Positions 2,920 through 12,858 of a stretch of 64,000 nt of DNA are shown here, in pieces (positions within the stretch are counted from its first letter, which is position 1; each line of letters opens with the position of its first letter). Under the pieces are notes generated by a model, which had not been told where the DNA came from, searched no databases, and saw nothing but the letters and a program-made list of their open reading frames with translations. A program made the translations under genes and the position numbers. The DNA lies in NCBI GenBank assembly GCA_029717555.1, contig JAMDHS010000010.1:186001-250000 (forward strand). The letters run 5' to 3'. Source of the stretch: Peribolospora baueri. Lineage: Eukaryota.

Positions 2920-5900
2920 ATGGTCTCCTTAGTTTACCCCTCGCCCGCCCACCCTTCTTCGCATACCGACATGCGTCCACGCGACTTGCGCCTTGTCCAC
3001 AGCCGCTCCCACCTCGCACAACCCCTCCTGCCGTCCTTCCCGACCTCCGGCTCCACCGACGAGCTCGCACAAGCCGCGGACGATCTCCGAGCCTTCCTCC
3101 GTGCACTCTTCTACTTTTCCAACCATGGCGGCATGCCCAGAAGCTACTTCATCCAAATGAGAGTCTTGAGCATCGCTTTGATCGTCATCCTCGTTTTCGG
3201 ACGTGAGTGTCTGTCGGCCTCCTCCCACTTGTTCGGGCCGAGCTCCATGCCCTTTCTTTGCGCACGGCGCGGGAGAGAGAGAGACGAACATCGGCTCACG
3301 TCTTGTCCTTTTTTTCCCTCCCTCCAGTCGCTGCAATCATCAAGCGCCTGTACCAGCGAACGTTTTGGCTGTTCCGAATCATGCGACGTGAGTCGGCCAG
3401 CTTCCATCTCGTCACTCGTCCCCGAACATGCAGGCTGATCTGATAAGCTCTTCGTCCGCGCCCGTTTCAGATCCGGAGGGTGTGTATATCGTGCCCAACG
3501 CGGTGACGACCTTTTGTCTCGTTGTTGGCCAATTTGGCATTCGTGAGTGGTCCTCGTTCTATTTTTCGCAGGAGAATGTGAGTGAGTGCAAGCGTCCGGC
3601 TGATTCGAGGTGACCTTATTTTTGCGCCGCTCATGTGTCCTTAAGTCTGGATTGCCTAGTGAGTCCCGCTGCATTTGTGACGCCGTCGTGAGGAAGGTGG
3701 ACAGGCGAGGCAGAAGCGCTCATCTATGGCATCATCCTCCTTCAACTCGCTTTGCAGCTCCTGGGTCAACATCGAAGTCCTGGACGACGGCCAGCCGCAA
3801 TGGCGACAATCACTCTGGCAACTGCTGACTTGGTGAGAGACGCACCTCGCGCACCTTCGAGATCCCTCTCCCAATTCTGACCCACCCCTCTCCCGATCTA
3901 CTTCCAAACCGCACATTTCAGGATCCCCCTTTGGACCGGGGCCTTCTGGTCAGGTTGGGGCACCTTCTACGCCTCTCCAAACGTTCTCTCTCGTCCTACA
4001 CCCCCTTCTTCGCCCCTGCTCAAGGGCCGAAGCTGGTACGCGAGGTTCGACCCGCGCAACCTGACCCTCCACTCCTTCATCCCTCGCCCACTCATCATCA
4101 ACCTTCTCTGCCTTGGCACGCCCGTCGTGGTCGTCGTCTCCGTCATCATCCCTACCGTCTTTGCAAGCCGCGAGTTTGAACGAGCGTACGCCGGTTATCT
4201 CACCTTGGATAACGAGCTCGCTCAGACACGCTCCATCAGCCAGGAGGATTTGGTGACAGCCCAAGAGATTTTCAACACGGCTGTCGATTCCTACTGGTAC
4301 AAAGAGCTGACCATGCTGCTCTGGTGTGAGTCATCATTTTCCATTTTCGTTTTTTTCTCCTTCTTCTCGACGTAACGACGTCGGCCTTGACACTCGCGCC
4401 GACCGGAACGACCTTTTTTTTTTTTTTTTTCCCTCCCTTCAATTTCCACAGGCATCTGGGGAGCTTTGTTCCTCGTCTTCTACGTACCCGCCGGAGGCTA
4501 CCTCGTCCATCTCGTCCGAAAGCAAGTCAAGGTATGTGTCTCCGCGACACAGTCGCCGACGACTCGCTCTTGGAGACCTGGACACTCATCCCTGTCGTCT
4601 CTCTCCCTTTTGCAGTCGGCCGTTCGCTCCAGAGTGACCCTCACGCCTGGTCCGGCTGACGGGATCGAAGGCGTGTCGCCCGGCTGGGCCCCGGAGCCAA
4701 AGCTCACGTCGTCGCCCTCCACAGAGCTCGTCGGTCAACAACAAGCGAGCCCGAGCCAATCGCCGGCCTCGGCCTTTCCCCAACCTCTGCCTCCTGTGCA
4801 AATGGTGCAGATGAACTCTAACTTTGGATTGGGGATCGGATTGTCGACGCCGCCGGAGCCGACCAGCGAGGGGCCACACACGACGGATGAGCAAGAAGGA
4901 GAGCCGACTACGACGACCGGCCAACAGCCGCAGCCGTCGTCGGACGAGCTGGAGGGAGAGCCGACGGCGAGCAGGCACAGCAGGAAGACCATCTTTTTCT
5001 TCCCTGCCGTTAGGCCGCCCAAGTCAAGCCCCTCGGCTAAGCGATCCAAAGGGGAAAATTACGGAAGTCATAGTTCTCGATACAAGTTTATGCGGAGGAC
5101 GAGCATCAACCTCACCATCCAATACTGTGCGTCGAATGCTTCCCTTCCCTCCTTCCCGTTCAATATGGTCCGCCATTTCTAACAAAACCTTCCCTCCCTT
5201 CCTTCCTTCGTCTCGCTAGTGGCCATCTCGTCAGCCACGCTAGGCTTCACCGTGGCCGCCGCCCAGCTTGCCGCCGGGCTCTATCCCGCCGCCTACCAGA
5301 ACAACCTTGCTCCTATCCTCATTCGCTCTAACCTCATGGCGGCGTGGCTCTCCGTAGTGTAAGTGTCGTGTCTTGTCTTGTCGTCGCGCTTCTGGCCCCC
5401 GCGGCGCCAGGACGAATCCGAAAAAGGAAATGTGATCTGACCTCTGGCCGTTCATGCTCCTCCTCCCTCCCCAGCTTCGGCGCTTTTGCCGTCGGCGCCA
5501 TCTTATCGCGAACGTTCGATACGGCTATCACGGCCGTTGACTTCAGCAGCACCCCCAGGAACAGGATCATTGCGCTCCCGTTCGGTGGTAGACTCAGCGG
5601 CTCCCTTCCGTTCAGTGGTAGACTCAGCGGTTCCCTTCCGTTCAGTGGTAGACTCAGCAGTAGCTCCGCCCCGTCTCGGCCTCCTGCGGCTCACAACAGA
5701 AGGCGGTTATCGGTGCGCACGCTGGACGATACGGCGTCTACGACCGTCGGCTCGTTCATGCACCGCTTGAGCTTCAATCCGCCACAAACGGACGAGACGG
5801 GCTTGAACAACCAGTCCGGGTCCGCGCTCGCTCCCGCCCCGGACCATCCACCATCCAAGAAGGCACTGCGGGAGAGCTGGAAGGACTTCGCAGGGAGCGT

Positions 5901-6849
5901 GCGCAAGGGCCGATCGCCCTTGTCCGTCGCCTCGGCCGCTGATTATGCCGTCGGCTCGAGTTTGGACGGCAAAGCCAAGGAGATGAGGACGGCGCTCGGG
6001 CGAAGAGGGAGCGCTTCCAATGCGCAGCCCGACATCGTCTACGCGAGCCCTTTCGGACCCATTCGATCGTCCGCTGGTGCCACCGTTGCTTCTTCCCTGT
6101 CCGACTCGCCGCCCCAAGGGTGTTGTCCTCCGCCCCCCCATCTCCCCACCTATCCGCCTCCAGCCTCCTCTTCCCCGCCCGTCTCGCCGACGTCGCGCGA
6201 TTCCTTCACCACCCTAGTCGGACAGCCGACTTCGCCCGTTCGATCAGCCTTCTTGCCGCCACCTTCGCTGCCACCACCGTCGTCACTCCCTTCTTCTTCT
6301 TCGCCTTCTTCGTCTTCTTCACCCATTTCGTCGTTACCCCTCGCCAGGAGGTCTACTACCTCGGCCCGACGCTCCTCACTCTCCACCGTGTGCGAACAAG
6401 AGACGAGTGGCGATTCGCACGGGTCCGAAGCAGCAAAGCTGGGAGAGCTCCATCATCGCCGCCAGGATAGCAGCGGACAACATTCGCACGCCGATAGTCG
6501 GCGCTCGTGGAGGAGTCAGCCCAGCTCGCCAGTGAGGGAGGAGGGCGAGAACGAGGTGTTGTGGGAGAACGACCGAGTGGCCCGATCGTCCGTCGAGTCG
6601 TCAGGCCACGCCAGCACCTTTGGCCGCTCCAGCGTTCGTTCACGACCCCGATCGCAACTCGGCGGCGGCGGCGGCGGCGGCGCTCTCGAGCCCGTCTTCG
6701 ACTCGGCTTCCAGCTCGGGCTCCAGGTCAAGCTCCAACCATCCCTCGCCCGTCTTGCTCGACCTCTTCCCCGTCCCCAGTTCTCCCCTCGCCCCTCCTCC
6801 CAAGGGCGGCCTCCGACGCGCCAAGAGCTCCACGCTCAGCTCTTCGTGA
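2920..6849 (+). CDS. Multi-exon orphan 7-transmembrane (GPCR-like topology) protein with a long Ser/Pro-rich C-terminal tail
   Basis: Manual splicing joins the ORF pieces at GT-AG introns. Hydrophobic segments: VLSIALIVILVFG, AVTTFCLVVGQFGI, LLTWIPLWTGAFWSGW, LIINLLCLGTPVVVVVSVII, MLLWGIWGALFLVFYV, LTIQYLAISSATLGFTV, LMAAWLSVVFGAFAVGAIL. The start could be ATG 2920 or 2971. The stop is at 6847-6849. Confidence 0.7.
5578..5660 (+). repeat. 30-bp coding tandem repeat, about 2.8 copies (LPF[GS]GRLS[GS]S)
   Basis: ccgttc(g/a)gtggtagactcagcgg(c/t)tccctt is repeated in frame just after the last TM segment. Confidence 0.9.
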
Positions 6850-7413
6850 CCGGTCGTAGTTAACTTATCCATCCACCCATCCATCTCGCCACTCGCTCGC
6901 TCCGAAATCTCCCTACCCTCGCCTCCCCGCCCTTCGTTTCCCTCCGTTCCATTGGCGCCCTCGCTCTCATCGCATTTATTTCGTCTTGCATGTATTGCAC
7001 AACCCCTCTCTCTTCCCCATCCAACTTACCCTACACACAAACAAATTCTTAAATTCTGCTCGGAAAGGTTGTACGGGATCAATTCACGACGTCGCGACGT
7101 TTTTGTAATGTCGAGTCCGTGATATGGAGGCGGGGACGGGGAGGGAGCGGGGGCGGAGATGGACGACGGTACGATTTGGGGGGGAACAAGTCATGTCACA
7201 TCTAGCCCGGAATCCTGAACGATGGATTTTTTTAGTCTAGGAGAAACATTGCATCCAGCGCCCCGTCATCTCATCTCGGAAATCCTTTGTCCCCCGACCG
7301 GACCGAACCGAACAGGACACAGCCCTCACTGCTCCGCTGTACAGGCTGGTGACATCGTGAATCGCTCGAGCAACTGTACTGTACGCATACACGGTCGGGT
7401 CGCGCTGTCAATA

Positions 7414-10400
7414 CTAACGGAACGTCTCTAGTATGATACCTAATCGCAGGGAGCCAAGACGGACAAGACGACGCGTACTGTCATGTAAACCGCTCTGGTC
7501 GCTTAACTGGAACAAAAGACGAAAAGAAAAAAAAAAAAAAGAAAAAACTCACCGGCGGCGATGGTCTCTCCATCCCTACGGAAAAGCACCCTGCCCAACT
7601 CTTTGCTGCTCTTGAAAGTGTCCAACGCGATGCTCCTCCCCAACGTCGCTGGCCCCATCCCTACCTCCTCGCCTCCCAGCTCGGCCACCTGCCCTCCGGT
7701 CTGCGAGCCGTTCCGCACCGTCACACGCACCTTGGCGGTGGCGCCCTTGCTTAGCATCCGCGGTTTGCGCTTCACCACTTCCCCCGTCGTCTTGTCCAGC
7801 GTAGCGATTAGCTCCGAAAACGTCGCGGGCACCGACAGGGCATGCACGAACACCTCGACCGAGGCGCCGGACGTGATCGGGTATTTCGGGTCGAAGACGA
7901 TGAGCTGGCAGACAAAAGACGTCGCTACAGGTACCAAAGAGATGGGAGGACAGAGTACTGAACCGACGCTGTTATGGAAAGCAAGAAGAGAAGTAGAATG
8001 TCAGTACATGCTCTGCGGCGTGCATCGCATGGGATGCGCCACACTCACGCGAGGTGGACCTGGTCTATTTGAGCGAGATACACCGTGACGTTCGCCCCAG
8101 CGACCGCCCACGGTGCTGGCTCAGTGTCCATTTCGATAGCTGCACGGCCGCAAATTACATCGCATATGTTAGCAGCTCCCCTTCACCCATCCTCTATTCA
8201 CACCTGGCGAATAGCTGACTCACCTCGCACGATGCCGCTCTCATCCCCAGGAACGATCCTAACCTTGTCGCCCACCTGTACGATGCCGCTCTCGACCCTG
8301 CCTGATACTCCCACGCCCGACGCGATGGCAGAGGTGCTCCTGAAGACGTTCGTGATCGGAAGCCGTAATGGGCCGTCAAGCGAGCGGGGAGGTATTTCCA
8401 ACGCGTCTGTCCAGCCGGCCGGAAGTCCTTGTCAGCAAATGAGTTCGCGTTGACAGCCCACTCGAACAAGTGGCCACAATATAAGCGCCGACAATGGCTC
8501 ACCGAGCGCCTCGACTAGCGTCCTTTCATGCCACCATGCCTCAAGTCTCGCATCGCTTCTCACGCTGAGATTCTCTCCCGCAGCCGCACCGACAGGGACG
8601 AAGCCGAGCTTGTTCGGGTCGAAACCGGATTGCTGGAGGAAAGGTCTGAGTTGGTATACTATATCTTCGAAACGGGACTGGTCGTAAAGCACCTACGATG
8701 AAGACATAATGAAACGAAGTGATGAGTGAGAAGACGACGGAAACGTGTCGTAAGAAAGAGACACCCTTGCAAATCGAGCTCGTGGGGCTCACCGCGTCCA
8801 TCTTGTTGACTGCAACTACCAACTCTCTTACACCCAGGCTCCTTACTAACAACGCGTGCTCCCTCGTCTGTCCGCCGGGACCGAAACCGGCCTCGAAAGC
8901 GCCGAGACTAGCGTCCACAACGAGTACGGCCGCATCCGCCTGGCTGGCGCCGGTGATCATGTTGGGAATGAAGTCGCGATGGCCCGGCGCATCGAGCAAG
9001 GTGAAACGCCGCTTGGGCGTGGAAAAGGAATCAATGCCCACGTCGATCGTCACTCCTCTCTCTCGCTCCTCGTCCGTCGCGTCCAACGCCCAAGCGTAGG
9101 CGAACGAGCCTTTACCAAGCTTTTGTGACGCGCGCTCGTTCGCGCTGTGTGCTTTGTCGGACAGGAAGCCAAGCTCGTGCATCAGGCGACCCATGAGGGT
9201 CGACTTGCCTGCATCCACGTGACCTGTTCAGATTCGAAACCGAGTTCAGACGTGCTTCCCTCCTCCTTAGTACAATAGAGCAGGCGAGGCTCACCGATGC
9301 AGACGAGACTGAGCTCCCTCTTTCCCTCCATCTCACGCTTCCTAACCTCCTCCACAATCCTCTCATGTGCGATGCCTTGCTTTGGCGTCCCGGCCTTGCT
9401 AGTGGGCAAGCTACGTCCAGGACTCGCTGCGCCGCCCAAATCGGACATGCCGTCTTCCGAACGCGCTGGTGAGGGAATATGAGCAGACGACAAGCCGAGC
9501 CCTTCAATGTCTTGTCGAAGCTGCGATACCGTAGCCGGCAGAGGTTTGCCGGTAGCAGTGGTCGTTGCGGGCACTTTGACACCACTTCCCGCGGGCGATC
9601 GCTTGCTTCCCGCTGGAGATGCTGCTCTCGGCATGGAAGTGGAAGCGGCGGCGGCGGCCGTTGCCTTCTTCTGAGCTTTGTCGGCTTCTCGCTCTGCAAG
9701 CGTGTCGTGATGTCAGCGCAATAAGAGCGACGTGAGCTGGCATTCCAAAGCGAGGTGAAGCTGCTCAAGGCGACGGAAAAAAGTGCCGCAAAACCGCGAG
9801 GACGCTTCAAATGGATCGGGTAAAAGCCACTTCCATCCATCCATGCGTGCGTGCCCATCTATCTCCGCCCCTTCAGCCCAACATCCTTCCCTTAGCCCCG
9901 CCGCTGAGACCACCCACGACCTTCGGCTTCTTGCCAGCGCTTGCCCCGCTCTGGGCGATGTTCTTCCGCCTCTCTGCCTCGCGCGCCTTGCTCTCCCTTT
10001 CCTTCTCCTCGGCCACCTCTCGCTCCTTATCCATCCGCGTGCCTTTACGAGCGGCTAGGACGACATCGTCTGGCGATGGACCGTGAAAGGCGGATAGCCA
10101 AGACGGTCGATCGTCGATCGCGTCACCGGTGCGGACGCCGAAGATGCGCAGAGAGAGTTGCGCTCGGTTGAAAGCATCTTCCTTCGACTTGGCGGGAGAC
10201 GGACCGGTGCTCTGGATGATGGTGGCAAACATGGACGGAGAGCTGCGCAAGATAGTCTTGGCGCGCTCGCTCTCTGCCGTCATCGCCGCGGGGAAGAGCC
10301 CGCCTACCGACGTGTCGACCTCGTCAACTGGGTTTGCTGCCTCCTCACCCTCCGCTTTGATCGCCGGTGCCGACATACTCTCCGTTGTCCCGCGTGCTGC

Positions 10401-11940
10401 GACGACTGTCTGCCGATTGGCCTGCATACGCAATTGCAGCTTGCTCACCCTTCCTGGAGCTTCTGTGGATGCGGGCGGAGGGAATTGAATGGGCGAGGCA
10501 GGCTTCGGTGAGGGCAGCGGAGACGTCGAAAGCGAAGAGAGAGGAGTCGATTTGCGCTTTGCTGTCAGGGCGGCCAGCTTTGACGGTTGACCGACTGAAT
10601 TGGCCGCTTGACTTCGTGGTAAGGGTTCTTCCGATGAGGCGGCGGGCTCGTTCGCCAGTTCCGTATGCTGCTCTTTGCGAGCAGCAATCAGGCCAGTGAG
10701 GGAAGGCTTTGCAACGCCCTCCGGCGGCCGGAAGTTTTGCAGTGAAGATTTTGCAGGGAATGGGGACCCCGCCGCCGGCGGAGCCAGGGAAGCTAGGCTT
10801 CGCCTGCTCGAATCTGATGATGGTCCAGATCGGCGTTGGGCCATCAGCGCCGCCAACTTCGAGGTGGGCATGTCGGTCTTGCTGGAACCTGGCACGGGTG
10901 GTTCGGAACTACCTACGGCATCCCCGACGGACGCGCACGAAGAAAAATTGTCTTCCTTCTCCTTGGAGTCGTCAGCTCTCCGAGAGAGAGTAAGTCGCTG
11001 AAGAGCAGACAAAGGCAGTGCGATGTCTGAAGCGGAAGGAGGGGACGACGGTGGCGGGGATGGTCCTGACGTCGTATGTTCGTAGCTTTGAGCGCCTTCC
11101 ACCACATCCACTGCCATTGCTGCCTCATCTTCTGTCGAGGCGAGGGCAGAGTCGGTTCAGGGTTTCATGCTTGCTGGGACGTCTTATGGCCTCCGGTTCC
11201 CTCGATGCAGTGGATGAGTTTGAACGCCCCCAGGCTGCGGAACAGGACCGCCAATGACGGACCCTTCTCCCGCGCAGCCCTTCGAACGTCCATCGCCCGG
11301 TCCATTCAACCCGTTCTTCCCTAGCGGGCACGCTCTCGCATCAAATCTCCCAGTTCGAAACGAAATGAAACAAGAGGGAGGCTGCCCTCGCTTCGCGAGT
11401 GACAACATGAAGGAAAAGAAGGAAATGAGGCGAAGACAAGGAAATATGGGACTCACCAGCCCTGCGCCTCTCCGCCGCCAGTTTCTTCTCCTTCTCTTGC
11501 AAAAAGAAATCGATTGTACCCTCAACGTCGAAATAGCTGTCCCACAGAGCATCCTTTATCTCCTTGTCCGTGAAACCACTCTCTTTTGCGTCGTGGCCCA
11601 AGACGTCCCTCACGGCGATGAGGCCGGAAGACATTTGGACTGCGAGAGGGCAAGAGCACGGTCAATTGAGGTAGGCGGTAGCATGAAGGAGAAGAACGAA
11701 CAACGAGGCGCACCAGCTTGCTCGTCGTCCAAATCATCGTAAGCGTATTCTTCCTCGGCCGAGTCGTAGCCATCGTCCTCGGCCACCTCCTCTGCAGCAG
11801 ACGACCGAAGTCAAGTAAAGTATCGCCGACATGGGCCATATGAGTTGTGGTATCCTCACTTCCCGCCATCCGATCGCCCGCCCATGACCTAGCCACGCAC
11901 CGCTGAGGTTCATGTTTCGAACAAGGCGGTGGCGCGACAT
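7414..11940 (-). CDS. HBS1: Hbs1 eEF1A-like translational GTPase (ribosome rescue)
   Basis: N-terminus [12 protein letters not shown] and HBS1_N domain ([20 protein letters not shown]). GTPase motifs [25 protein letters not shown] and NKMD. C-terminus [23 protein letters not shown]. Exon 3 donor 11456 splices in phase to the CAG acceptor at 9694. Confidence 0.95.
9873..11131 (-). CDS. SKI7: Alternative terminal exon of HBS1 encoding a Ski7-like (exosome/SKI adaptor) C-terminus
   Basis: A phase-1 CAG acceptor at 11132-11134 matches the exon 3 donor. The 1259-nt open exon contains [30 protein letters not shown] and [15 protein letters not shown] and ends in a stop at 9873. Confidence 0.8.
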
Positions 11941-12858
11941 CGTCGTGGTTCCTTTTTGGCGGTAGCCAGGTAAGAAGAGTGACGGCCTTTCGGATGATCA
12001 AGGTGAAGTAGACGAGGAGGCAAGGAGGGAAGGGAAGGTGCGGGATTGATGGCGGCAAGTAGGCTGCGGCGACGCTGGCAATCGCGACGGCCAACGGGTC
12101 AGCTTGGCGAGACTCGAGACCACCATCTGCTTGACCCTCACCAAAAGGTCGGAGTCGTCTTTTCCTTGTCCAACTCTGCTGACACCCGCTCGCCTGACGC
12201 GGGACCGGCCCGGCGACAACCCCTACTGCAAGTCAGAGGGCGGACACTGCGCCACCACGCAGCACAGGCCCCCCCTCCCCCACTACCCACCGTCTCCATC
12301 TCGCCTACGTCGCTAGTGCGGGTACGCGACACCCAGGGCCGCTCACACTCGTGTCAATACAGAGGAGCATGGCCGTTTATATGCCGTCACAGTGTCACTC
12401 ACCCTTCTCAACCTCAGGAACCCGTTCGACGACCCTTCATACCCAATAGCGTCCACCTAGGCAGATTTTTTTGAATCATGGGAAGATAGCTTGTGTTGAA
12501 AAGACCAGCCTGCATCTCATCCGCTCGTTGGGCCATAGATGGCCACTAAGCTATAGATTAGATATGTTTATTGTCCTCTTCCTTACCATCTCCAAGGTCT
12601 CAGCAGATCTTGCAATCGGCCTGACCGCCAGAGACCATCGACGATGGAACAGCCAAGACAGACAACCCACTCGAGTCATCGCCGAGGCACTGCTTCACCA
12701 GGAAGGAGGCTTTCAAAACGTTCAGGCACGACAGAGGCTTTGAGAAGGCTTTCATGGGAGACGCACTGGTGAAAAATAACCAGGACTGATCTCACTGCTG
12801 CCCAGCAGCTCGAAGGTGCAATTGCTGAAGCTTGTGAGGGCAGCCAATACGAAGACGA

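What the first reader, a model, noticed from the sequence alone, without database searches (positions are those of the whole stretch)
9694..11456. Hidden Ski7-like exon inside HBS1: one gene, two mRNA-surveillance proteins
Seen: the phase-1 donor G|GTGAGT at 11456 has two in-phase acceptors. The distal one (GCTGAC...TGCAG, 9694) gives ...[16 protein letters not shown]... and continues into the Hbs1 GTPase. The proximal one (GACAG, 11132) opens a 1259-nt exon ending in a stop at 9873. Exons of 40+78+183+1259 nt give a 519-aa protein with the HBS1_N domain but no GTPase. The exon has SKLAAL-type helices, PSMFA and F-x2-PSPDDVV. Established: PSPDD-type motifs are the exosome-binding signature of Ski7 and human HBS1LV3, and alternative splicing of HBS1/SKI7 is known in several eukaryotes. 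Inference: this is the organism's only Ski7 and gene predictors would probably miss it.
Basis: partly seen in the sequence, partly recalled or inferred. Interest (0 to 1): 0.85.

Follow-up and report, generated by a model that had tools for sequence, protein, structure and literature searches.

The report
Fungal HBS1 gene with Ski7 exon
This is a fungal HBS1 gene whose one oversized intron hides an exon for a short Ski7-like exosome adaptor, an arrangement already described for basidiomycete fungi and for the human HBS1L gene, so it is real but ordinary.

Summary
On the minus strand, exons of 40, 78 and 183 nt end at the phase-1 donor G|GTGAGT (11456). Joined to the acceptor at 9694 they give a complete 678-aa Hbs1. 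Joined to the acceptor at 11132 they open a 1259-nt exon ending in TGA at 9873. That gives a 519-aa protein with HBS1_N but no GTPase.

The exon carries, in the canonical order:
- five S1-type SKLxxL helices;
- a Ski7-like motif, PSMFATII;
- a Patch-4/S3 motif, [10 protein letters not shown].

No RNA run was listed, so use of the splice sites is not shown. Whole-exon sequence searches found nothing.

Comparative evidence is strong. A 344-aa Rhizoctonia solani protein and 14 of 14 metagenomic HBS1 loci carry the same motifs between HBS1_N and the GTPase. Two loci (L001, L008) reproduce the in-phase splice architecture in full, and L002 does so on the proximal side. A profile of these exons hits human HBS1L3 and yeast Ski7 as its top five PDB matches.

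The kind is known. Marshall et al. 2013 described a truncated Ski7-like form from exon inclusion in Cryptococcus and Ustilago, resembling human HBS1LV3. This scan has also reported SKI7/HBS1 genes on other DNA.

The claim that this is the organism's only Ski7 could not be tested.

Verdict: a new member of a known kind, of low interest.

The parts
11901..11940 (-). Exon 1 (40 nt), ATG at 11940; [13 protein letters not shown]...
   Evidence: The N-terminus is nearly identical to Rhizoctonia P0002 and to locus L001.
11714..11791 (-). Exon 2 (78 nt), acidic stretch
   Evidence: Flanked by ctgcag| and |GTGCGC.
11457..11639 (-). Exon 3 (183 nt), HBS1_N domain, shared by both products
   Evidence: Pfam PF08938, E 4.9e-13.
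11451..11456 (-). Shared phase-1 donor GTGAGT
   Evidence: L001, L002, L004 and L008 have a phase-1 G|GT donor after the same lysine/arginine-rich tail, although L004 and L008 have an extra intron and a mini-exon before it.
11132..11456 (-). Proximal intron (325 nt) ending in cgacag, with CTGAAC 23 nt upstream of the AG
   Evidence: The same CTGAAC occurs near the 3' end of constitutive intron 4. Use of this intron is not shown by RNA data.
9873..11131 (-). Ski7-specific exon (1259 nt; 418 codons plus the split first codon), with stop TGA at 9873-9875
   Evidence: Rich in Ser, Ala and Pro. No Pfam family.
10977..11015 (-). [13 protein letters not shown], first S1-type amphipathic helix motif
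   Evidence: 11 of 16 residues identical to Rhizoctonia [13 protein letters not shown]. L002 has PLTALQRL.
10830..10862 (-). [12 protein letters not shown]1-type motif
   Evidence: Compare SKLAALKK and SKLAALAKARK in Marshall 2013 Figs S1 and S3.
10674..10706 (-). [11 protein letters not shown], degenerate S1-type motif
10551..10583 (-). [12 protein letters not shown]1-type motif
10413..10445 (-). [12 protein letters not shown]1-type motif
10215..10250 (-). [15 protein letters not shown]7-like (Rrp43-type) motif
   Evidence: P, S and F are invariant in 12 of 12 aligned sequences. Aligns to ARPSAFASTL of human HBS1L3 in PDB 9g8m_E. Consensus given in PMC6143672.
10035..10088 (-). [18 protein letters not shown], Patch-4-like / motif S3 (Csl4-type)
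   Evidence: F, S, P, D, D, V and A are invariant in 12 of 12. Aligns to human HBS1L3 and yeast Ski7 chains. BLASTP to Rhizoctonia P0002, E 4e-07.
9694..9872 (-). 179 nt between the Ski7 stop and the distal acceptor, with CTGAC at 9712-9716 and ttgcag at 9694-9699
   Evidence: The equivalent gap is 8 nt in L001 and 57 nt in L008.
9295..9693 (-). Hbs1-specific exon 4 (linker; [10 protein letters not shown]...)
   Evidence: L001 gives EKEKRKAATPA and L008 gives AAEEREKAQKLA at the same junction.
7414..9223 (-). Hbs1 exons 5-10: 9223-8793, 8692-8503, 8406-8224, 8139-8049, 7968-7553 and 7439-7414 (stop TAG). They encode the GTPase and domains II and III.
   Evidence: GTP_EFTU 6.6e-40 and GTP-eEF1A_C 3.6e-21.

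Best explanation
The locus is a single SKI7/HBS1 gene of a basidiomycete-like fungus. Transcripts share three 5' exons that encode the HBS1_N domain.

At intron 3 the spliceosome pairs the donor at 11456 with one of two acceptors:
- The distal acceptor (9694) removes all 1763 nt and yields the 678-aa (72.5 kDa) ribosome-rescue GTPase Hbs1.
- The proximal acceptor (11132) removes only 325 nt. Translation then runs through a 1259-nt exon to a stop at 9873 and yields a 519-aa (55.1 kDa) protein without a GTPase.

The extension is mostly disordered but carries short linear motifs in the Ski7 order. Five S1-type amphipathic helices are inferred to dock on the Ski3 TPR arm, as Ski7N helices H1-H3 do. 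A PSxFAxxI motif is inferred to bind Rrp43. About 54 residues later an FxxPSPDDVV motif is inferred to bind Csl4. The short product would therefore bridge the Ski2-Ski3-Ski8 helicase complex to the cytoplasmic exosome, as yeast Ski7 and human HBS1L3 do.

Shown here: the open frame, the phases, the motifs and their conservation. Inferred: use of the proximal site, the 3' end of that mRNA, and all binding.
For: Anatomy:
- Both joins are in phase and free of stops.
- Intron 3 is more than 15 times longer than the other eight introns.
- A 427-codon open frame was reached in 3 of 2000 simulations.
- The motifs are unique to this exon within the window.

Relatives:
- The only hit to the HBS1_N exon among longer proteins is a 344-aa Rhizoctonia solani protein with HBS1_[45 protein letters not shown] and no GTPase. 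BLASTP against the exon gives 4e-07.
- Of 80 metagenome loci fetched with the GTPase exon, 14 carry HBS1_N upstream. All 14 have a P4-type motif between HBS1_N and the GTPase: 11 by tblastn and 3 by pattern.
- In 14 of 14 sequences compared, the Ski7-like motif precedes the P4 motif by 41-85 residues. The frame closes 11-63 codons after the motif.
- L001 and L008 reproduce the whole design: a phase-1 donor, an in-phase proximal acceptor, a stop, and then a distal acceptor 8 or 57 nt later that gives an EKEKRK/EEREKAQK linker like the window's [10 protein letters not shown]. L002 has a phase-1 donor and an in-phase proximal acceptor.

Family:
- A profile of 12 of these exon ends finds human 'Isoform 2 of HBS1-like protein' (9g8m_E, E 4.2e-4, both motifs) and four yeast Ski7 constructs (E 0.008-0.025). 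These are the top 5 of 7 PDB hits.

Literature:
- Motif consensus and partners: PMC6143672 section 8.
- Ski7N helices on Ski3: PMC10659929 passages.
- S1-type sequences: Marshall 2013 Figs S1 and S3.
Against: - There is no transcript evidence of any kind for this locus.
- The whole exon has no detectable homologue: 0 hits in 1.84 billion representatives, 0 in two word-indexed searches, 0 in PDB as a single sequence, no Pfam family and no usable Atlas hit. Conservation therefore rests on short motifs and on position.
- The proximal acceptor has a weak pyrimidine tract and only an approximate branch site. Several in-phase AGs follow it.
- The arginine of the metazoan RxxxF core lies 6 residues before the F here, not 4.
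- No poly(A) signal is recognisable in the 179 nt after the stop.
- The tblastn P4 hits are individually weak (E 0.004-0.37).
- The Rhizoctonia protein is a database gene model, not a demonstrated product.
Confidence: 0.8

Rival explanations
1. The Ski7-like frame is expressed on its own from a promoter inside the 325-nt 'proximal intron'. Translation would start at the ATG six codons into the exon (EDEAAM...), giving a Ski7-like protein without HBS1_N. This would match Candida albicans, which uses an alternative transcription start.
For: An in-frame ATG lies at the sixth codon of the exon. Marshall 2013 showed alternative start sites for C. albicans SKI7.
Against: The frame is in phase with the shared donor here and in L001, L002 and L008. 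Similarity to the Rhizoctonia model begins right at the junction, upstream of that ATG, and that model includes HBS1_N.
Confidence: 0.08
2. The exon is a cassette. A weak donor after the motifs splices on to the Hbs1 exons, giving a long Ski7 that keeps the GTPase, as in ascomycetes and plants.
For: A GTGGGT donor (5 of 6 positions, phase 0) lies at about 9917, and a phase-0 AG lies about 24 nt inside exon 4. Database annotations for Cryptococcus and Ustilago draw such introns.
Against: The only phase-1 donors matching at 5 or more of 6 positions (10379, 10349) lie upstream of both exosome motifs. The phase-0 pairing needs a second AG beyond the normal acceptor and has no pyrimidine tract. The conserved AAA-GGT seen after the motif in the ascomycete-like loci is absent here and in L001, L002, L004 and L008. 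Marshall 2013 Text S1 found no EST or RNA-seq support for the equivalent introns.
Confidence: 0.07
3. The open frame is a decaying or silent relic (a pseudo-exon). The gene makes only Hbs1, and Ski7 function lies elsewhere or is lost.
For: No RNA evidence. No whole-exon homologues.
Against: The frame is intact over 427 codons. All three motif classes are kept and are invariant at 10 columns across 12 sequences. Codon bias fits only the proposed frame. The same design occurs in distant relatives.
Confidence: 0.05

Closest known systems
[quoted passage not shown] 2013, PMC3597508, section 9 and Text S1)
   Same: A single gene. Hbs1 is made by skipping the Ski7-coding part. The Ski7-like product probably ends at a stop soon after motif S3 and lacks the GTPase.
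   Different: This is a different organism. Here the alternative part is one 1259-nt exon with five S1-type repeats. Those authors had ESTs; there is no RNA evidence here. I did not align the Cryptococcus or Ustilago sequences.
Human HBS1LV3 / HBS1L3 (SKI7) (Kalisiak et al. 2017, PMC5389692; Koegel et al. 2024, PMC11540850; PDB 9G8M)
   Same: It shares the N-terminus with Hbs1 and has an alternative exon with its own stop and no GTPase. An RxxxFxxxL-type motif is followed about 50 residues later by PFDFxxxSPDDIV near the C-terminus. The profile of the fungal exons aligns to both motifs of chain 9g8m_E.
   Different: No global similarity. In the window the arginine lies two residues further from the F. 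In man the SKI complex is reported to bind the shared N-terminal part, whereas here S1-type helices lie in the alternative exon.
Ascomycete SKI7/HBS1 with alternative 3' splice sites (Lachancea kluyveri, Aspergillus nidulans, Saitoella complicata; Marshall 2013)
   Same: One donor and two acceptors. The proximal acceptor adds the S1/S2 motifs.
   Different: In ascomycetes the long form keeps the GTPase, and motif S3 lies downstream of the distal site, so it is in both forms. Here S3 is specific to the Ski7 form and a stop follows it.
Saccharomyces cerevisiae Ski7 (PDB 5JEA, 5G06, 8QCA, 8QCF)
   Same: N-terminal helices bind Ski3. A Patch-4 NRPSPDDII motif is present and is matched by the profile.
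   Different: It is a separate, intron-less gene without HBS1_N and with a degenerate GTPase domain. The profile did not align the PSxFA motif to it.
Rhizoctonia solani hypothetical protein OPQ81_009776 (P0002, 344 aa)
   Same: The same architecture and motif order. 65% identity in HBS1_N. No GTPase.
   Different: It is shorter, with one SKL repeat against the window's five S1-type motifs. Its genomic context was not seen.

Membership tests
Ski7 / HBS1L3-type exosome-Ski adaptor (SKI7-like product of an HBS1 locus) | Encoded between the HBS1_N exons and the GTPase exons of the HBS1 gene, reachable by alternative splicing in frame | tested here: met
   Both acceptors are in phase with the donor and both products are free of stops. 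Actual splicing is not shown, because no RNA run was listed.
Ski7 / HBS1L3-type exosome-Ski adaptor (SKI7-like product of an HBS1 locus) | SKI7-like motif (metazoan A+PShFAahL, human RxxxFxxxL) | tested here: met
   [14 protein letters not shown] and F are invariant in A1. It aligns to ARPSAFASTL of 9g8m_E. The basic residue is displaced by two positions.
Ski7 / HBS1L3-type exosome-Ski adaptor (SKI7-like product of an HBS1 locus) | Patch-4-like / S3 motif (PF.F..SPDDIV) | tested here: met
   [22 protein letters not shown] and A are invariant in A1. It aligns to human HBS1L3 and four yeast Ski7 chains. It is unique in the window.
Ski7 / HBS1L3-type exosome-Ski adaptor (SKI7-like product of an HBS1 locus) | S1/S2-type amphipathic helices N-terminal to the exosome motifs (Ski3-binding in yeast) | tested here: met
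   Five copies. Strict pattern: 2 observed against 0.1 expected. The same pattern is seen in 8 of the 12 metagenome loci compared and in Marshall 2013 Figs S1 and S3. Equivalence to yeast H1-H3 rests on pattern only.
Ski7 / HBS1L3-type exosome-Ski adaptor (SKI7-like product of an HBS1 locus) | Physical bridging of the exosome (Rrp43, Csl4) and Ski2-Ski3-Ski8 | not testable with these tools
   The organism's exosome and Ski subunits are not in the window and no genome is held.
Hbs1 (eRF3-family translational GTPase) | HBS1_N, GTP_EFTU with the GHVDAGKS P-loop, and eEF1A-like C-terminal domains in one stop-free product | tested here: met
   678 aa. PF08938 4.9e-13, PF00009 6.6e-40, PF22594 3.6e-21.
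Ascomycete/plant-type long Ski7 (Ski7 motifs plus GTPase in one chain) | The Ski7-specific segment continues in frame into the GTPase | tested here: not met
   Stop at 9873. After the motifs there is no phase-1 donor matching at 5 or more of 6 positions.

The most novel reading that the evidence does not exclude
In the basidiomycete-type genes the Ski7 stop codon sits just ahead of the distal acceptor. The gap is 8 nt in L001, where the TAA lies inside the CTAAC branch site, 57 nt in L008 and 179 nt here. This leaves little or no room for a separate poly(A) site. The Ski7 mRNA may therefore carry the whole Hbs1 coding region, with its six spliced junctions, as a 3' UTR. That would make it a natural target of nonsense-mediated decay. 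The amount of exosome adaptor would then be set by the mRNA-surveillance system itself, as a feedback loop.
Probability: 0.2. Interest if true: 0.5.

Novelty: new member of a known kind. Interest (0 to 1): 0.22.

Why it matters
It adds one more basidiomycete-type example to a known rule: Ski7 and Hbs1 come from one alternatively spliced gene. It also shows that the GTPase-less, human-like form of Ski7 recurs in several uncultured fungal HBS1 loci.

In practice it is an annotation point. Gene models for this locus should carry two products. A model that treats 9694-11456 as a plain intron loses the organism's probable exosome-Ski adaptor.

It does not open a new question.

Tried and rejected
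- RNA evidence: no RNA holder was listed for window:7400-12000.
- Own genome: none is held, so a second SKI7/HBS1 copy could not be sought.
- Whole-exon homology: the search for homologous proteins on the whole exon and on residues 285-385 gave 0 hits. phmmer against 1.84 billion representatives gave 0 hits. PDB with the single sequence gave 0 hits. Pfam gave only P22_portal at E 0.14, below its cut-off. The Atlas gave no usable hit. These blanks fit a disordered, motif-only region and are not evidence against function.
- Rfam on 7000-12500: nothing, so the long intron does not host a known RNA.
- Intron retention as the source of the Ski7 frame: rejected. Reading through from exon 3 hits a stop at 11341.
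- Marshall et al. 2018 (PNAS): not held, either by DOI or by PMC id. I saw only its citation and a one-line summary in PMC7491326.
- Structure prediction and complex prediction were not run. The region is disordered and no partner sequences from this organism were available.
Full report
**What is there**

The finding's span, 9694-11456, is exactly intron 3 of a ten-exon gene on the minus strand.
- Exons 1-3 are 11940-11901, 11791-11714 and 11639-11457. They total 301 nt and end in phase 1 at G|GTGAGT.
- Exon 3 matches Pfam HBS1_N (E 4.9e-13).
- From the acceptor ttgcag|AGCGAG (exon start 9693; CTGAC branch site at 9712-9716) the frame runs through six further short introns. All have GTGAG[TC] donors and YAG acceptors.
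- It ends at a TAG at 7414 and gives a 678-aa protein. That protein has the GHVDAGKS P-loop, GTP_EFTU (6.6e-40) and GTP-eEF1A_C (3.6e-21). This is an ordinary, complete Hbs1.

**The alternative exon**

Intron 3 is 1763 nt. The other eight introns are 71-113 nt.

Inside it, 325 nt from the donor, cgacag|AAGATG (exon start 11131) is in phase. It opens a frame of 1259 nt that ends at TGA 9875-9873. With exons 1-3 this makes 1560 nt, or 519 aa (55.1 kDa). The product has HBS1_N but no GTPase.

The frame is unlikely to be open by chance:
- A stop-free run of 427 codons was reached in 3 of 2000 Markov simulations trained on the intron itself. That training favours long runs.
- Codon usage fits the Hbs1 exons only in the proposed frame (+0.11 bits per codon, against -0.35 and -0.14).

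Reading straight through from exon 3 without splicing hits a stop at 11341. Intron retention therefore cannot give this protein.

Other in-phase AGs follow at exon starts 11128, 11119 and 11110, so the exact acceptor is open by a few codons.

**What the exon encodes**

It is rich in Ser, Ala and Pro and has no Pfam family. It contains short motifs in a fixed order:

| Motif | Coordinates |
|---|---|
| [13 protein letters not shown] | 11015-10977 |
| [11 protein letters not shown] | 10862-10830 |
| [11 protein letters not shown] | 10706-10674 |
| [11 protein letters not shown] | 10583-10551 |
| [11 protein letters not shown] | 10445-10413 |
| [12 protein letters not shown] | 10250-10215 |
| [18 protein letters not shown] | 10088-10035 |

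The last two motifs are 54 residues apart, and 63 more codons follow before the stop.

In the six-frame translation of the whole 64-kb window:
- The SPDD[IVLAM]V core occurs once (0.03 expected).
- The strict SKL repeat occurs twice (0.1 expected).
- All of these lie in this exon.

**Searches that found nothing**

No RNA run was listed for the locus and no genome is held for the window.

The whole exon found no homologue:
- two word-indexed searches;
- phmmer over 1.84 billion representatives;
- PDB sequences;
- the ESM Atlas.

It is not met at the level of motifs and architecture.

**Relatives**

Searching the shared HBS1_N exon against longer proteins gave one hit. It is a 344-aa 'hypothetical protein' of Rhizoctonia solani, 65% identical to the HBS1_N exon over 82% of it.

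Its sequence starts MSRHRDVRNMN and has HBS1_N. It then reads [42 protein letters not shown] and FNTPSPDDAVMAAREGTRLN, and ends 13 residues later with no GTPase. BLASTP against the window's exon gives E 4e-07 over the two C-terminal motifs and 0.002 over PLSALQRL.

A metagenome scan with the GTPase exon kept 80 loci.
- tblastn found HBS1_N upstream of the GTPase match in 14 of them (E 0.002 or better).
- The window's P4 region was found between HBS1_N and the GTPase in 11 of those 14 (E 0.004-0.37).
- The other three (L009, L011, L013) carry SKLA.LA and [PA]SPDD[IV]. Two of them also carry PPSFFA, by pattern search.
- Two loci without an HBS1_N hit also matched. L005 is a 1570-nt contig that starts inside the frame. 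L014 is a plant-type continuous ORF with a zinc finger, PFKFDTPSPDDMV and the GTPase.
- The remaining 64 loci gave no hit.

In all 14 sequences compared (the window, the Rhizoctonia protein and 12 loci):
- The PSxF[AG] motif precedes the SPDD motif by 41-85 residues.
- The frame closes 11-63 codons after the SPDD motif.
- SKL..[LKM] occurs in 12 of 14. It is missing from the truncated L005 and from L001.

**Conserved splice design**

L001 starts MSRHRAVRNLN.
- It has the donor ...ARKRAG|GTACGT in phase 1.
- Its proximal acceptor is cgcag|ACATC, after a short intron with a GCTGAC branch site.
- A 182-codon frame follows, carrying PPSRFGQLV and FSELSPDDRVLQARAGTR.
- Its TAA stop lies inside the branch site (gaCTAACgcggcag).
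- The distal acceptor lies 8 nt later and gives EKEKRKAATPA... running into GHVDAGKS.

L008 gives an in-frame, stop-free 641-codon Ski7 extension over two exons. Its distal acceptor lies 57 nt after the stop and gives AAEEREKAQKLA.

L002 has a phase-1 donor and an in-phase acceptor 151 nt downstream.

L002, L004 and L008 also share the window's intron position just before GHVDAGKS.

The design of the window's gene is therefore conserved, although the exon's sequence is not.

**Family test**

I aligned the exon ends of the window and 11 loci. This used 12 of the 14 sequences. L040 was left out as a near-duplicate of L035, and the Rhizoctonia protein was left out because I used DNA references only.

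Ten columns are invariant: P, S and F of the first motif, and F, S, P, D, D, V and A of the second.

A profile of this alignment against all PDB sequences gave 7 hits at E up to 10:
- Best was 'Isoform 2 of HBS1-like protein', 9g8m_E (E 4.2e-4), aligned over both motifs (ARPSAFASTL ... FDFKSASPDDIVKANQKK).
- Next came four yeast Ski7 constructs: 8qca, 8qcf, 5jea and 5g06 (E 0.0076-0.025), matched through NRPSPDDII.
- The last two were an unrelated convertase (E 0.5-0.57).

9G8M is the human exosome-SKI-ribosome structure (PMC11540850, data-availability passage).

**How it most likely works**

What follows comes from the literature, not from tests here.
[quoted passage not shown] In human cells the first motif is necessary and sufficient for exosome binding, while the second has a minor role (PMC6143672 section 8; PMC5389692 passages).
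- Yeast Ski7N helices H1-H3 (residues 1-12, 29-34, 76-87) insert leucines into pockets of the Ski3 C-terminal TPRs (PMC10659929 passages).
- Motif S1 of Marshall 2013 is MSLLEQLARKR in S. cerevisiae, and SKLAALKK or SKLAALAKARK in unduplicated species (Figs S1 and S3 as text).

The window's five SKLxxL-type repeats fit that pattern. I therefore infer that the 519-aa product tethers the Ski2-Ski3-Ski8 complex to the exosome, while the 678-aa product rescues stalled ribosomes with Dom34.

The 3' end of the Ski7 mRNA is unknown. No poly(A) signal is recognisable in the 179 nt after the stop. The relatives' gaps of 8 and 57 nt argue that the transcript may simply continue through the Hbs1 exons.

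**Rivals**

- A stand-alone start at the ATG six codons into the exon is possible, since C. albicans uses an alternative promoter. The conserved phase argues against it. So does the similarity to the Rhizoctonia model upstream of that ATG.
- A long Ski7 that keeps the GTPase would need a weak phase-0 GTGGGT donor at about 9917 and a second AG inside exon 4. The two phase-1 donors matching at 5 of 6 positions (10379, 10349) lie before both exosome motifs. Marshall 2013 Text S1 found no EST or RNA-seq support for the equivalent annotated introns in Cryptococcus and Ustilago.
- A dead relic is unlikely, given the intact frame and the invariant motifs.

**Comparison with what is known**

Marshall et al. 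2013 (PMC3597508; section 9 read in full, Text S1 passages) state that Cryptococcus neoformans and Ustilago maydis skip exons to make Hbs1. They also state that a truncated Ski7-like protein, with motif S3 near its C-terminus and no GTPase, is probably made. They call this 'strikingly similar' to metazoan splice form 3.

[quoted passage not shown] Brunkard and Baker 2018 extended the motifs across eukaryotes (section 8).

A full-text search for 'Ski7' with 'basidiomycete' returned two papers, Marshall 2013 and a 2008 evolutionary survey. Marshall et al. 2018 (PNAS) was not available to me. From recall it classifies several kinds of Ski7-like proteins across eukaryotes.

This scan has already reported SKI7/HBS1 genes on other DNA, all read as the known ascomycete type.

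The present case differs from the ascomycete type. Motif S3 is specific to the Ski7 form, and a stop follows it.

**Verdict**

The 'only Ski7' claim is untested, and the 'predictors would miss it' claim is weakened by the Rhizoctonia record. This is a new member of a known kind, of low interest.

Noticed in passing
L001:6740-6770: The TAA stop of the Ski7-like frame lies inside the CTAAC branch site of the distal acceptor (gaCTAACgcggcag|AAAAAG). One short sequence therefore serves both as the stop codon of one product and as the splice signal for the other.
   Followed up: partly
L020, L021, L024, L028, L035, L040, L046 (about 20-40 nt after the SPDD codons): In the ascomycete-like metagenome loci the stop-to-stop frame closes 11-23 codons after the P4 motif, about 250 nt before the GTPase match. 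A conserved AAA-GGT follows the motif. Published ascomycete models have the long form running on into the GTPase, so an intron probably starts here. It was not worked out.
   Followed up: no
window 10349 and 10379 (minus strand): Two phase-1 donor-like sites (AGG|GTGAGG and AGA|GTATGT) lie inside the Ski7 exon, upstream of both exosome motifs. If joined to the 9693 acceptor they would give a third product with S1 repeats plus the GTPase but no exosome-binding motifs. This is purely hypothetical.
   Followed up: no
window 7414-7552 (minus strand): The last Hbs1 exon is a 26-nt micro-exon (GIILETFR, then the stop). It follows a 113-nt intron that begins with a long T-rich run.
   Followed up: no
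L014:197-2326: A plant-type SKI7 lies in a 2.7-kb metagenome contig. One continuous ORF holds a RanBP2-type zinc finger, NIVPFKFDTPSPDDMV and the full GTPase. It matches the plant consensus quoted by Brunkard and Baker 2018.
   Followed up: no
window 5332-6849 (+ strand): A 505-codon open frame rich in Ser and Pro lies convergent to the 3' end of HBS1. It was not examined.
   Followed up: no
L004:4461-5000 and L008:4533-4877: These two loci have an extra Ski7-specific exon with a shared RLSTITERTE(K/R)T stretch. This stretch is absent from the window's gene, so the Ski7 extension varies in exon number among relatives.
   Followed up: partly
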